Of a stretch of 64,000 bases of DNA, positions 5,338 to 43,068 are shown one piece after another (positions within the stretch are counted from its first letter, which is position 1; every line of letters starts with the position of its first letter). The position numbers and the translations under genes were made by a program. The notes under the pieces were generated by a model, which had not been told where the DNA came from, did no database searches, and saw only the letters and a program-made list of their open reading frames with translations. The DNA comes from Eledone cirrhosa (lineage: Eukaryota), in contig OZ024742.1 of assembly GCA_964016885.1 (NCBI GenBank), positions 279,868,001 through 279,932,000 on the forward strand. The letters are read 5' to 3'.

Positions 5338-5730
5338 TTTCGTTTCTGAATTTGTTTAGCAAGATTCTTTATCTGAAATCGTGTGTTGAAACCGATATTG
5401 TTATACTTTGGGAGGGTCATGTTGCCAATAAGAAACACACGCACCAGTTGCTTTCACTTCAATTTAATTTAATATATATTTATAAATTTACAAATTTATA
5501 AATTTCTGGTTGGTTGGTTGGTTCCACAACCAGATTAATGTTCAGAGTGTGTGACGAAAGAACTATGACTATATATATATAAACAACTATCTGGTTGTGG
5601 AACCAACCAACCAACCAGAAATTTATAAATTTGTAAATTTATAAATATATATTAAATTAAATTGAAGTGAAAGCAACTGGTGCGTGTGTTTCTTATTGGC
5701 AACATGACCCTCCCAAAGTATAACAATATA
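5338..5730. mobile_element. Fold-back element, family A, with shortened centre
   Basis: Arms ~5395-5535 and ~5590-5729; same termini as 17219-17772; only the GTGTGACGAAAGAAC half of the ribozyme is retained. Confidence 0.8.
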
Positions 5731-5889
5731 TATATATATATATATATATATATATATATATATATATATATATATATATATATATAACAAAAGATTAATA
5801 TGGTTCATTGATTACTCAATGAATATAGTTTTACAATACTGGAATCGAAGCATCAAGACCGTTGATGTATGACATACATCAATTCATGT

Positions 5890-5970
5890 ATTACATCTGA
5901 CGAGGACGTACTGAAAAAAACACCACAGTACCTTCGAAATATATATAATAAAACATATATTTTGTGAATG
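5890..5970 (+). ncRNA. Degenerate hammerhead motif (related copy ~33045-33108 minus)
   Basis: CTGACGA-GGACGTACTG...CAGTACCTTC-GAAA-TATAT; the 33 kb copy reads CTGATGA-GGACGTAC-tgtt-GTACATCA-GAAA-TATGT; stem I weak. Confidence 0.5.
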
Positions 5971-6022
5971 TCTTCATTTATTAATATTCTGAATAATATA
6001 TATATATATATATATATATATA

Positions 6023-6845
6023 TATTCTATTCTAAGGCAGGTAAAATTCCCGAGATCCATGGACGAGTTCTCTCCAGCGGTCTCTGTCCCTCATTATCGC
6101 TGCCATGTCCTGCGTCTCCAACAGACCAGTGTCTGTCCTTAAGGCATCAACATACGTTAACCTTGGTCTTCCTCTTCTAGTGTGTCCATGTAGGGGCTCC
6201 CAAAGGAGCACTGAGTGCAATGTCAACTCTGGATGTCGGTGAGCATGTCCAGCTAACCTCAGTCTCCTCTGTGTCACTTTTGAGCTGACTTTTGGGATGC
6301 TCCTATACAGCTCTGAGTTTTTCATCCTCAGTGTATACTGATTAATGTTCAGAGCCATCCTCAGCATTTTCGTGTAGCACCCATCCACTATCTGAGTGAG
6401 TTTCTTGGTCAGTGTCCAAGTCTCAGTTCGATACAGCAGCACAGACTCCACTACAGCAATGAAGAGGCGGATTTTCAGGTCTTTATTGTAGTACGGGGTC
6501 AGAGCAGGAGAGTTAGGGCGAAAAAGGTATCGGATGCTGAATTTTCCGACGACATAGTTTTGGTGACAAATACAGTGAAGGAGGCAGAGGATTTGATGCG
6601 GGAGGTTGAGACTGTGTCGATGAGTGTGGCGCTGAGAATGAATGAGACTAAAACAAAATATCTGGTAGAGAATGTTGAGCCAGAGGGGATCACTAATGTA
6701 GGCGGAGAGCCGCTAGATTTGGTTGAGTGCTTCCTGTATTTGGGAGCAAAGATTGGGAATACGGAAGATGATGTGGTTGAGAGAAAGAGCAAAGCCTAGG
6801 CGGCGTGCCACAGCTTGAGATCGGTGTGGAAGTCGGACATTCGTA
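6023..6845. mobile_element. RTE-like LINE 3' fragment with 5' inversion
   Basis: Plus part 6497-6845 encodes FSDDIVL..MNETKTKY..FLYLG..VWKSDIR; minus part 6032-6495 continues KDLKIRLF..ESVLLY..RRLRLAGH..GRPRLTY..DRDRWR. Confidence 0.85.
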
Positions 6846-39030: not shown

Positions 39031-39054
39031 GTTGGTGGTAAAGAGAAAAGGCAC

Positions 39055-40916
39055 TTACCTCTCTGCGTCCCGGGAAACGGGCCGCTCAATTTCCATACTG
39101 GTTGGGGATGGGTTGTTGGGTGGGGTGGTGGTTTGTGGAAGTGAAGGGGCATCGGTGTGTTGTGGGGTTGGGGTGTTTGTCGTTGAGTGGGTGTCTGGGT
39201 GGGGTGGGGGGGTGAAATTTTTTAGGAGGACGCGGTCGATTGGTTTGGCGCAGGGGGGGCCCACGTCCTCCGTGAAATTTATTTTCAGTGTTTTGTACAA
39301 GTGCATTGGGACTTTTATCATTTTCAAATGAGGTAGTCCCACAGCAGTTATAAAGTTTGGCCCTTCAGTTTGGACCGAAGGGTTTGCTGAAATTGTTTTC
39401 CGTAATTCTTTGTTGTCTGTGTTCATGTATGTGTATTGTAAGGTCTTTTTTTGTGTAGCAGTTAGTGTTGTGTGACAGGGAGGGGTGGTTTGTGTGTAGT
39501 TTGTGTTCTCTTGGGGGGGGGGGGGTTAAAGTTAACATGTGTGTCTGTGGTGCGTCTCCTCTTCTTTCTTTTTACTTGTTGGAAGAGATCTTTTTCGTCT
39601 TGCGACGAAAGAGGTTCGTCTTCCTTGTTGGGTGGGAGGGGTATGTTTTCTGGTAGTGTTTGCGGTGTGCGTGTTTTTGTATTTGTTTTGGGTGGGGAGG
39701 GATTGGGTGGGACAGTATTCTGTGTTATTTTTTCACGTGTTTGTTGTTGTTGTTGTTGTGGTGGTGGTGGTGGTGGGGTTGTTGGTTTTTGTTGTTGTTG
39801 TGGTTGTTTTTGTTGTTGTAGTTGGGGTGGTGTTGGTGTTGGTAGCAGTGTTTTTTTCTGTGTGAGCTGGGGACAGGCAGCCCTCAGGTGACCTCTATTG
39901 CCACAGAGGTAACAGGAGGGACGCCTACCCTCCACAATAATGTTGAGGTGGGTACGGTCATCCAGCATGACGCGCTCAGGGATTTGGGCGATGCGTTCTG
40001 GCCTTATTTGGGTCAGAACTTCGAGGCTCGTTCCACTGAACGCGTCGCCGGATGCCTTCCCTATTGAGATGAGGTTGTCCTCGTCTAAATTGAGGAAACC
40101 GGTTAGTAACCACCAGTAGTTTATGTTTGGGGTGATGGTGGTTATCCATATCCTCTGGGTTTTTTTACCCATGTAGGTGGGGAAAAAGGTGTAGTGTGTG
40201 GACCGAATTGGCGACACAGAGTATTTTTTTGCCGCCAATTCGTCTTTCATCAATATGGATAAACTCCCATAGAGTTTATCCTTTTGTATGAAAGTGATGT
40301 CTCTCATCGCGTCTTTCAAGACTAACTGAGTTTCTGCTTGAGATGGTTGCGCTGGTTTCTTTGTTTTATTTAAAATTGTTCGGAATACGACAGTTCGTAA
40401 TTCCGTCTGTCTTTTTAGCTCCGGAGGTGAATGTATAGAAAACGATCCGTTTTCGCCAAAAGACACATATTTCTTGGCTTTTTCCAGCATTTCTTTTGCT
40501 TTTGAAATATCTTCCAGCACATAAGCGACTGATAATTTAGCCGTTTGTGCAAAAGATATTTTGTTTTCGTTTTGGATATTAGTATTGTTTTGTTTCTCGT
40601 CGTTTGAGTTGTTTTCATCTTTGTTGTTGTTGTTGTCTTTCTCGTTTCGTGTGTGGATACTTGTGACGTTTGTGTTGTTGTTGTTTTTGCTGTCTTTATT
40701 GTTGCTGTTGTTGTCGTTGTTGTTGTTGTTGTTGTTGTTGTTTTCAAATTCTTGTGTAGTTGTGGCTACATCTAGTGGTCGGTCAACAGGTGAAGACAAT
40801 TCTTCCTCTCTCTGACCTCTGCCTTTGGCATCTGCTGCTGTGACAGTGGCAGGGGGAAGCTGTGAGTATGACTTCCCCTTTCCTTCTTTGATTGATGGTG
40901 AAGATGCTTCAGCCAT
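39055..40916 (-). CDS. LINE ORF1 (gag-like zinc knuckle), split by one frameshift in the C13 run at 39513-39525
   Basis: CYLCGNRGHLRAAC knuckle with N-, Q-, P- and T-rich low-complexity tracts; adding one C joins the 39462-40916 frame to the open frame ending at 39055 (~620 aa). Confidence 0.8.
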
Positions 40917-42265
40917 TTTTCTCAAAATAGGGTTTTTCGAAGTTTTTCGAAAGATAAAATGTTCACAATACTATTTCGCCCAAAGGCGCAGAATATTTTG
41001 AGAGACCGACCAGATCAAAATTTGACCTGGCAGTCCCTCTACAAAATGATACAAAAATGAAAGTTTACAGTTTACAATTTCCGTATGAATTTAAACAAAA
41101 ACTTACCGAGCGAGCTCAGCACATGTGTCCATCGTAGAGAGAGATAGATAGATAGAGAGAGATAGATAGATAAATATACACGGGTGTGTATGATTGTGTA
41201 TAGAAGATTATATTAATAAAAGGAATTCCAACTTTGTCTGATTTACTCGTTTTATTTACAATCCTTTAAAATCTATAAGGGTATTAGAATGAAATAGTAT
41301 GGTAGAATATTAAATGTTAAGTGTTAATTGAACAAGTACTTTTATGCTTTCGCAATCTTCAGGTTCAAATTGTTTGATGACAGTCAAGTTTGCAATTTTT
41401 AACTGTAATGAGATGGGTAAATTTTGTGCCAAATATACAGTGAAAAGTGGCTCCAGAATGCTAAATCTTGCAAACTGTATTTCGACCAATCTGTGTGTAG
41501 TTTCACTGGATTACTAAAGCTGATTAGTTTAGGCGTCACTGTTGTTTGAACATGTCGAACGACTACTAATTGACCCTATCCAAAGCATCAATTATTTTGC
41601 TATTTTTTGGAAATGATGAAAATAGCATTTTCTAGTAATCATCACCATCAACATCACTTTTATTGTTATTATTGTTGTTGTTGTTAGTGGTCGTAGTCAT
41701 AGTCATAGTAGGATTAATAATCCATTATTTTTGTTCATTTAGCTTGGGTTTGAATTTACCAATAAAATTATTTTCTTTGATTTTTCTCTTGATTTCACTT
41801 GGGCTGTGTAATTTGTAGAATGGGAATATTATAAATATTCCCTGACCACATGTTGCTAGATGGTTACTTAGGGGTATCTGACGGACATTTGGGTCTCTGA
41901 TTTCACAATGCTACCCCTAGTTATGTCTCTATATATATGTACACGCATATATATATATATATATATATATATATATATATATATATATATATATATATAT
42001 ATATATATATATATAGAGAGAGAGAGAGAGAGAGAGAGAGAGATGTAAAATCCCGACCACGGTACCAAGCTGTGTGAGCGTGTGTGTTCAATAAGCCTTT
42101 CAAAATGCTTGCTGAACCTACCTGTTGAAAACACTTGGCACAACGGAGGGGATGTTACATATCTCTATACGCATTCTACATCACCCCATGTATCGATTAC
42201 TCAGATAATTAGTGGTCTCAGCACAGCATACTATCTCTCTCTCTCTCTATATATATATATATATA

Positions 42266-43068
42266 CAAAATTAAATTAAAGGTTGTCATGTCTGAGAGAC
42301 ATGCGCCATATTCACTGCAGTATAAGCTCAAAGATTCCAATGAATAGATCCGACCATTTTATATCAACTAGAAATAGATTGACATATATATATATAAAAT
42401 AAACATATGAAACAATCACAGGGAATAATTTATAAAGTGTGTAAGCACACATAGCTAGGTATGTAACTAATTAAAGTTTAACTAGAACTTCAAATATTAA
42501 AATGATTAATCTCCTTTGTATATATTTCTTTAAAAAAAAATATATTTCTCCAATTAATCAGTAAATCACAGTAGTAAAATCCCAGATGGTCATCAAAGAA
42601 GATCCAACGATCTGTGTTTACACAGCAAATGCAAATCTGTGAATGACTGGTAACACGTGTTGCATTTTTTAAAAAGCACACACACCGCACATCGTCATCC
42701 CAGTGGCATGAATAGGATTATCGACAGCTAGAAATAGCAGCCGAGTCCATTCACAGATTTGCATTTGCTGTGTAAACACAGATGGTTGGATCTTCTCCTT
42801 TGGTGACCATCCAGATTTGACTACTGTGATTTACTGATTAATTGGTGAAATATATTTTTTTATTTAAAGAAATATATACAAAGGATATTAATCATTTTAA
42901 AAGGTATCTATATTTGAAGTTCTAGTTAAACTTTAATTATTTACCAACCTAGCAATGTGTGCTTACACACTTTACAAATTATTCCCTGTGATTGTTTCAT
43001 ATGTTTATTTTATATATATATATATATATATATATATATATATGTCAATCTAGTTCTAGTTGATATAT
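42266..43068. mobile_element. Fold-back element, family B
   Basis: Arms ~42361-42645 and ~42749-43066, ~90-nt left tail; decayed TTGATGA...GAAATATAT motifs point outward. Confidence 0.8.

What the first reader, a model, noticed from the sequence alone, without database searches (positions are those of the whole stretch)
5338..43068. Fixed asymmetric termini suggest programmed twin priming at an internal AT site
Seen: family A copies at 5338, 17219 and 26622 share the same two ends. One end carries a ~55-nt tail (TTTCGTTTCTGA...) and the other stops at CCCAAAG(C/T)ATAACAATAT, although their centres differ. Family B (42266 vs 19870) behaves the same way with a ~90-nt tail. The short copies (26622, 19870) are tail plus inverted arm with a small junction deletion and no duplication, which is classic twin-priming geometry. 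The long copies duplicate the arm into a palindrome. One-sided tails of ~70-150 nt also occur at 4610, 26117, 48714, 49150 and 51884. Inference: both nicked (TA)n strands prime cDNA, one at the RNA 3' end and one at a fixed internal ATAT site, and the cDNAs are joined head to head. Alternatively, the short copies are later collapses of palindromes.
Basis: partly seen in the sequence, partly recalled or inferred. Interest (0 to 1): 0.75.

Follow-up and report, generated by a model that had tools for sequence, protein, structure and literature searches.

The report
Twin-primed Penelope retrotransposon insertions
These lopsided mirror-image repeats in TA runs are end-pieces of a very abundant Penelope-like jumping gene and of a small non-coding repeat that behaves like it; their shape is already described, but the strict pairing of one long and one short end suggests each insertion is likely made by copying the element's RNA twice, from two fixed internal start points, onto both cut DNA strands.

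Summary
Observation confirmed. Family A is the terminal repeat (pLTR) of a Penelope-like retroelement: an intact tandem copy encodes a 1318-aa telomerase-like RT with a C-terminal GIY-YIG-type nuclease motif set, and the pLTR carries a minimal hammerhead. The genome holds about 14,600 short ends and 13,500 tail ends, but only 423 exact read-throughs. All 28 head-to-head pairs with both anchors join one short and one tail end. Centres are copy-specific (no MITE). In 42 of 73 the short arm reaches further 5' than the tail arm, which single fold-back cannot make. Arms share subfamily alleles, junctions favour 3-4 nt microhomology, and inner ends pile up at a likely RNA start. Best reading: programmed twin priming, likely on one RNA. 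Family B is a non-coding ~550-nt tandem unit obeying the same rule. The shape is published (PMC8557442), as are two internal starts in vitro (PMC11167929); I found no paper giving the pairing rule. This scan reported the same model before on other DNA, in this genome and others.

The parts
5335..5535 (-). Family A copy 1, tail arm (ORF-start coordinates -114..+86); tail itself 5335-5394
5543..5729 (+). Family A copy 1, short arm (-160..+26); reaches further 5' than the tail arm; 7-nt filler at 5536-5542
17216..17533 (-). Family A copy 2, tail arm (-236..+86); inner end lies in the pile-up zone (likely RNA start); tail 17216-17274
17533..17773 (+). Family A copy 2, short arm (-212..+26); about 4-nt filler at the junction
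17575..17618 (+). Minimal type-I hammerhead motif of family A (mirror copy on - strand at about 17429-17472)
   Evidence: descriptor; 0 hits in 10 shuffles of the window; conservation
26620..26663 (-). Family A copy 3, tail-only arm (+43..+86)
26661..26717 (+). Family A copy 3, short arm (-28..+26); no duplication, 3-nt overlap at junction
42261..42751 (-). Family B long copy, tail arm; tail about 42261-42360
42751..43066 (+). Family B long copy, short arm, with an internal expanded TA tract at 43011-43043
19873..19988 (-). Family B short copy, short arm
19984..20085 (+). Family B short copy, tail-only arm
4617..5302 (.). Third family: head-to-head palindrome with ~57-nt tail on the right; same two ends in other copies
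26114..26569 (.). Fourth family: palindrome with ~88-nt tail on the right; same pattern in L177
48714..48947 (.). Palindrome with ~80-nt tail on the right; family ends not testable
49155..49513 (.). Palindrome with ~137-nt tail on the left; family ends not testable
51876..52905 (.). Hammerhead-bearing 484-nt tandem unit: inverted arm plus partial tandem, flanked by a 10-nt direct repeat (51876-51885, 52896-52905); right end stops 1 nt before the predicted ribozyme cut

Best explanation
Family A copies are truncated head-to-head insertions of a Penelope-like retroelement with two fixed ends inside its ORF start, and they likely form when the element's enzyme cuts both strands of a (TA)n run and each cut strand primes a cDNA at its own fixed internal RNA site, likely on the same RNA molecule. 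Shown: element identity, two fixed ends 60 nt apart (both ending in AATAT, able to pair with TA), one of each per inverted insertion, independent and copy-specific inner ends. Inferred: (1) the nuclease cuts both strands; (2) one strand is assigned to +86 and the other to +26, perhaps by a protein dimer; (3) when the +86 cDNA stops inside the tail the product has classic no-duplication twin-priming geometry, and when it runs past +26 both cDNAs copy the same stretch and give a palindrome, which needs strand displacement or sequential use of an undegraded RNA; (4) many cDNAs run off an RNA 5' end near -240, and longer arms come from read-through tandem RNA; (5) the two cDNA 3' ends are joined by end joining with short microhomology or filler. 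Family B is likely a non-autonomous passenger pasted in the same way from a tandem or circular RNA.
For: ORF, motifs and tandem unit; predicted fold closest to telomerase RTs (top 9 hits). End counts 14,571: 13,508: 423. 28 of 28 head-to-head pairs with both anchors are short+tail (my count). Of 115 tail ends: partner short end 71, none 28, other 13, tail end 3 (two insertions). Of 73 simple inverted insertions 18 are tail-only and 55 overlap; the short arm reaches >15 nt further 5' in 42 of 73; 69 distinct breakpoint pairs. The two arms differ at 30 of 1071 subfamily-informative positions (2.8%) against 29% for shuffled pairs (33 pairs). 3-4 nt microhomology in 18 of 32 cleanly scored junctions against 5.8% expected for >=3. 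31 of 237 inner ends fall in -250..-226, hazard 1.14 per 100 nt against 0.08-0.3 elsewhere; when one arm stops there its partner passes it in 1 of 21 cases (5.8 expected, p 0.009). One empty homologous site has a pre-existing TA run (L060 against L131). Family B: 21 short, 21 tail, 6 read-through. In vitro, a Poseidon PLE cuts and extends both strands and starts at two internal sites that bound the tail (PMC11167929).
Against: All mechanistic steps are inferred from genomic products; no RNA data. Arm concordance could also come from gene conversion between arms or from two RNAs of one active donor; L054 has 5 arm differences at shared-allele sites and L052 has 4, as two templates would give. 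32 of 73 junctions scored as filler or nearby mismatch and 9 as long overlaps (5 natural palindrome centres, 4 script artefacts on tiny copies); these were left out of the microhomology count. 14 of 55 overlapping copies have near-symmetric centres (3.8 expected); 6 sit in an AT-rich natural palindrome, which fold-back or collapse could explain. One of the 5 both-arms-at-start cases (L158) is a complex junction and looks like a duplicate of L154; the two L152 copies may be one event. About a third of short ends (33 of 124) show no inverted partner. In PMC11167929 the start site did not differ between the two strands in vitro, so strict strand assignment is not reproduced there.
Confidence: 0.7

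Rival explanations
1. Dual priming: same two fixed starts, but each target strand copies a different RNA molecule held by an enzyme dimer.
For: Removes the need for strand displacement; L054 and L052 arms differ at shared-allele sites; a dimer was predicted for the Anolis protein (PMC11167929); dual priming was proposed for L1 (PMC2837659).
Against: Arms match at 97% of informative sites, 18 of 33 pairs with no shared-allele difference against 1.7% shuffled; inner ends of the two arms are coupled at the likely RNA start. Both could still hold if one donor locus supplies both RNAs.
Confidence: 0.15
2. One priming at the tail site, then the cDNA folds back (self-priming, as proposed in PMC3846280) and copies itself to the short end.
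For: 14 of 55 near-symmetric centres, 6 of them in a natural AT palindrome; arms nearly identical.
Against: A fold-back arm cannot hold sequence absent from the first cDNA, yet the short arm reaches further 5' in 42 of 73, including window copies 5335 and 26620; it gives no reason for a fixed short end when other TA-rich spots lie upstream.
Confidence: 0.05
3. One true priming; the second end is set by nuclease resolution of a transposition intermediate or by a jump to an antisense template (tail origin suggested in PMC8557442; antisense template in PMC3846280).
For: Published suggestions; would also give one tail per insertion.
Against: PMC11167929 maps both tail borders to RT starts; both ends here end in the same target-like AATAT; tail-only copies lacking +27..+42 fit two cDNAs more simply.
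Confidence: 0.06
4. Insertions are made as long palindromes, and the short copies are later deletions across the hairpin (applies to the short class only).
For: Junction microhomology fits deletions too; tail-only arms cluster at 11-30 nt (16 of 73).
Against: Tail-only copies are not older than palindromes (median 1.05%, n=6, against 1.8%, n=30; p 0.61; weak); palindromes with 5-8% diverged arms persist uncollapsed.
Confidence: 0.08
5. A DNA-transposon MITE propagated as a unit.
For: Inverted arms and TA target resemble MITEs superficially.
Against: 69 distinct centres in 73 copies, arms up to 4.2 kb running into an RT ORF, asymmetric ends, hammerhead motif.
Confidence: 0.01

Closest known systems
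Endonuclease-bearing Penelope-like elements, insertion structure (Craig et al. 2021, PMC8557442: passages, section 15, supplement part 54 and two supplement searches seen; Arkhipova et al. 2013, PMC3846280: passages seen)
   Same: Partial tandems forming pLTRs, adjacent inverted 5'-truncated copy, tail at one end only, pLTR overlapping the first codons, (TA)n targeting, tens of thousands of copies.
   Different: Tails here are 60 nt (A) and 57-137 nt (others) against 30-40 nt described; those passages give no pairing rule and ascribe the tail to nuclease resolution or the inversion to self-priming.
Poseidon PAc of Anolis, in vitro (Frangieh et al. 2024, PMC11167929: abstract, main text and start of methods read, parts 1-2 of 4)
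   Same: Both strands cut and extended; two RT starts inside the ORF 5' end that bound the tail; AT-rich targets.
   Different: There the start is not homologous to the target and does not differ by strand; here both starts end in AATAT matching (TA)n and each inverted insertion uses one of each.
L1 twin priming (as described in PMC2837659: passages seen)
   Same: Both target strands prime; head-to-head inversion; microhomology junction; tail-only copies have the same inversion-plus-deletion geometry.
   Different: L1 uses the poly(A) 3' end plus a variable internal site and is occasional; here both sites are fixed and internal, it is the main route, and 55 of 73 products overlap.
Neptune / Nematis clades (C-terminal GIY-YIG with CX2-5CxxC linker)
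   Same: Domain order, linker motif, two Cys in the nuclease core, hammerhead in pLTR.
   Different: Linker spacer is 7 aa (Nematis-like by eye against Fig. S2); RT3-RT4 spacing is 133 aa, about 70 more than the canonical rows of Fig. S1 and than Hydra-like ORFs of this genome (61), and DKG reads DKS. No tree was built.
Non-LTR retrozymes (bioRxiv 10.64898/2026.07.22.740005: passages seen)
   Same: Family B and the 51884 family are non-coding head-to-tail units of 480-550 nt with PLE-like insertion; 51884 has a type-I hammerhead.
   Different: No hammerhead was found in family B; its autonomous partner is unknown.

Membership tests
EN+ Penelope-like element (family A) | Single ORF with telomerase-like RT | tested here: met
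   1318-aa ORF in L191; RVT_1 E 0.00097, below Pfam cut-off, for L058 and no Pfam hit for the full ORF; model pLDDT 92.6, top 9 Foldseek hits are telomerase RTs, E 4e-8 to 4e-6
EN+ Penelope-like element (family A) | GIY-YIG nuclease in the same ORF with CCHH motif | tested here: met
   VY..C..C..YIG..R..EH at residues 1214-1250 read by eye; homolog P0072 passes the Pfam GIY-YIG cut-off; no nuclease structure among the 50 fold hits shown
EN+ Penelope-like element (family A) | Tandem or partial tandem copies forming pLTRs that overlap the ORF start | tested here: met
   4423-nt tandem unit in L191, also L192, L159
EN+ Penelope-like element (family A) | Hammerhead motif in pLTR | tested here: met
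   Minimal type-I motif with unpaired base before stem II as in PMC4209133 (part 1 of 4 read); Rfam does not detect it; activity untested
EN+ Penelope-like element (family A) | Inverted 5'-truncated copy and one-sided tail | tested here: met
Neptune or Nematis clade | CX2-5CxxC linker before a C-terminal nuclease | tested here: met
   residue 1192; Cys invariant in 119 aligned proteins
Neptune or Nematis clade | No insertion between RT3 and RT4 (canonical PLEs lack IFD) | tested here: not met
   133 aa, 131-140 in 117 of 121 proteins scored
Neptune or Nematis clade | RT phylogeny places it in the clade | not tested
   no named reference proteins in the Python box
Naiad clade | N-terminal nuclease, no hammerhead | tested here: not met
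   nuclease is C-terminal, hammerhead present
Hydra clade | CCHH absent, divergent RT4, length under 3 kb | tested here: not met
   core cysteines present, canonical-type RT4, 4.4 kb
Non-LTR retrozyme (family B) | Non-coding head-to-tail units | tested here: met
   units of 525-553 nt in 4 loci; no PLE protein match in B arms
Non-LTR retrozyme (family B) | Type-I hammerhead in each unit | tested here: not met
   no CUGANGA on either strand of the L217 unit; no Rfam or descriptor hit
MITE | Symmetric TIRs and shared interior | tested here: not met

The most novel reading that the evidence does not exclude
Programmed two-site twin priming on one RNA is the normal insertion route of Penelope-like elements: a dimer assigns one cut strand to each of two fixed internal starts, the downstream RT displaces the upstream cDNA, and this one rule explains tail, inversion and palindromes across coding and non-coding families. 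Family A also marks an undescribed PLE lineage that combines a C-terminal nuclease with a telomerase-sized insertion in the RT fingers.
Probability: 0.5. Interest if true: 0.7.

Novelty: new variant of a known kind. Interest (0 to 1): 0.5.

Why it matters
How Penelope-like elements make their tandem/inverted copies and tails is named as an open question in PMC8557442. The genome holds some 14,000 natural products of one family with an intact master ORF, and they give three sharp predictions for an existing in vitro assay: strand-specific starts at +26 and +86, both arms from one RNA, and run-off at about -240. It also explains why such palindromes are easily mis-filed as MITEs. The element class and shape are known, which caps the score.

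Tried and rejected
DNA search of the own genome with the A end found nothing because common words are skipped. No RNA holder listed; contigs of DNA-like runs laid on 16900-18200 were swamped by paralogues and gave no allele information. Genome-wide motif counts across the -240 zone (19,516 at -176, 7,539 at -231, 7,853 at -268; 15 for a TA-joined form) are inconclusive: the -231 pattern fits one subfamily only, and as counted they show no drop across the zone. No pile-up of inner ends at the hammerhead cut of family A (7 ends in -145..-125, hazard 0.23; two junctions fall on it). RNA folding of the start region gave no convincing structure. PDB sequence searches: nothing useful for the single protein, weak RT hits with the profile. 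Rfam hits to microRNA families are TA-repeat artefacts. No partner ORF found for family B or the 4610, 26117, 48714, 49150 families (only fetched loci searched). Target-site duplications cannot be read in (TA)n. The first unit cut out for family B was mis-bounded; its fold and ORF lengths were not used (redone). One search failed on an empty pattern; only its first two lines were used, rest redone. Sample: 160 loci (L001-L070, L101-L190) from the first 37 Mb of contig C1, chosen by exact patterns, plus the window; it is biased to younger copies and to short arms of at least 24 nt. Dropped before counts: 10 ends of a sibling family, 1 non-terminal hit, L066 (complex) and one duplicate. Literature searches for a twin-priming model of PLEs listed none; the library lacks most subscription papers, and bioRxiv supplements were not visible.
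Full report
Setting. The window is AT-rich animal DNA dense in microsatellites (8,502 of 64,000 bases masked) from a 3.0-Gb assembly. The best protein relative of the element is labelled Octopus vulgaris (70% identical), so the host is probably an octopus.

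Observation. The five named copies exist as described. Family A has two ends: a short end (S) and a tail end (T) 60 nt further on. A 26-nt anchor next to S has 26,757 exact matches (0 control). Exact patterns give 14,571 S ends, 13,508 T ends and 423 read-throughs past T. In loci chosen by the anchor alone, 79 of 82 arms stop at S or T. 109 of 124 S ends and 104 of 116 T ends are followed by at least 6 nt of AT repeat. One homologous empty site shows that the TA run exists without the insert (L060 against L131).

What family A is. Long arms run into an ORF. A tandem locus (L191, 4423-nt unit) holds it intact: 1318 aa, RT motifs at 767 and 940, CxxxxCxxC at 1192, GIY-YIG-type core at 1214-1250. 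Its predicted structure (pLDDT 92.6) matches telomerase RTs best. The pLTR has a minimal hammerhead about 177-133 nt before the ATG, of the type described for PLEs in PMC4209133; among 155 copies the three variable positions fall in loop II, loop III and the base at the cut. So A is the pLTR end of an endonuclease-bearing Penelope-like element. S lies at ATG+26 and T at ATG+86: both are inside the ORF, both end in AATAT, and tandem copies read straight through them. This contradicts 'one primer at the RNA 3' end' and agrees with the two internal starts found in vitro for an Anolis PLE (PMC11167929).

Anatomy of insertions. From 160 loci plus the window I scored 124 S ends: 75 simple inverted S+T, 12 complex, 36 without a near partner, 1 unscored; 73 simple ones remained after dropping L066 and a duplicate. 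All 28 head-to-head pairs carrying both anchors are S+T (counted); of 115 T ends, 71 pair with S, 3 with T, 13 with another end, 28 with none. Independent choice of start would make half of the pairs S+S or T+T. Centres are copy-specific (69 distinct of 73). 18 of 73 are tail-only with no duplication; 55 overlap, in 24 the S arm is longer, in 17 the T arm, in 14 they are within 15 nt (3.8 expected). Since the S arm holds sequence missing from the T arm in 42 of 73 and the T arm always holds the tail, neither arm can be a fold-back copy of the other: two primings are needed.

One RNA or two. Arms of one insertion differ at 30 of 1071 subfamily-informative positions, shuffled pairs at 29%. Inner ends pile up at -250..-226 (31 of 237; 4-14 times the rate elsewhere), just upstream of an ATGGCG motif that resembles a YY1 site (recalled, not from a call); I read this as an RNA start, untested. 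Both arms stop there together in 5 cases (Fisher p 0.005; one is the complex L158) and a partner passes it in only 1 of 21 (p 0.009). That favours a shared template. Against: L054 and L052 arms differ at several shared-allele sites, and gene conversion or two RNAs from one donor could mimic the pattern. Junctions: 18 of 32 cleanly scored have 3-4 nt microhomology (5.8% expected); 32 had filler or nearby mismatches and 9 had long or artefactual overlaps.

Collapse. Six symmetric copies centre on an AT-rich natural palindrome and could be fold-backs or collapses. Tail-only copies are not older than palindromes (n=6 against 30, p 0.61), a weak argument against collapse as their origin.

Family B and others. 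B has 1,191 exact anchor matches, is a non-coding unit of 525-553 nt found head to tail, and shows 21 S, 21 T and 6 read-through arms with varied centres. Both ends are again internal. I found no hammerhead and no partner ORF. The 4610 and 26117 families show the same two ends in other copies. The 51884 element is a 484-nt hammerhead-bearing unit (Rfam HH9 E 6.6e-6, below gathering score) whose extra sequence is a partial tandem; it has a 10-nt flanking direct repeat and one end 1 nt short of the predicted cut.

Comparison with the literature. Inverted truncated copy, one-sided tail and (TA)n targeting are described in PMC8557442, which also lists Octopus Naiad and Hydra families and calls the mechanism open. 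PMC3846280 proposes self-priming. L1 twin and dual priming are defined in PMC2837659. My searches listed no paper with a twin-priming model or pairing rule for PLEs. PMC13282606 (passages) counts Penelope-like families in O. vulgaris without these features in the passages seen. By motifs family A is nearest Neptune/Nematis but has about 70 extra residues between RT3 and RT4, shared by its homologs, so I do not file it in either clade.

Earlier scan notes. After forming my reading I looked these up: 53 findings in at least 15 genomes hold the same words, and several in this genome give the same model. They are unchecked AI notes and are not counted as support.

Verdict. Real, largely a known structure of a known class; the two-priming mechanism is strongly favoured, one-RNA templating is likely. 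Interest 0.5.

Noticed in passing
L191:4153-8106: The RT has 133 aa between motifs RT3 and RT4 (131-140 in homologs), an insertion at the telomerase IFD position in a C-terminal-nuclease PLE, where PMC8557442 reports none; the ORF also has a long Asn/Thr/His-rich insert near residues 255-440.
   Followed up: partly
window 51876-52905: Hammerhead-bearing 484-nt tandem unit inserted outside (TA)n with a 10-nt direct repeat; one end stops 1 nt before the predicted ribozyme cut, as if primed at a self-cleaved RNA 3' end. Single example.
   Followed up: partly
L037, L043, L046, L111, L138, L140, L169, L174, L178, L190: A sibling family shares the last ~25 nt of family A's short end but differs upstream.
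   Followed up: no
L063:6337-8001, L032:3-2222, window 45292-45903: Other PLE ORFs with a Hydra-like RT4 motif; a fragment lies in the window on the - strand.
   Followed up: partly
L118, L186: Two insertions pair a tail end with a tail end, the only exceptions seen to the short+tail rule.
   Followed up: no
L057, L058, L193: Two near-identical ~4-kb arms in inverted orientation 11.8 kb apart, one with the tail and one short, with LINE-like sequence between them: probably one giant insertion.
   Followed up: no
window 8479-8653, 16536-17090, 19225-19399, 21033-21213, 23040-24022, 27427-27620, 28860-29075, 30614-30787, 56971-57071: About a dozen copies of a ~180-nt SINE-like repeat.
   Followed up: no
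window 30806-30993, 33772-33923, 24415-24890, 55397-55531: Further small inverted repeats and an old diverged family A relative (55397).
   Followed up: no
L218, L119, L120, L169, L014, L177: Different families stack inside each other's flanking or internal TA runs.
   Followed up: no
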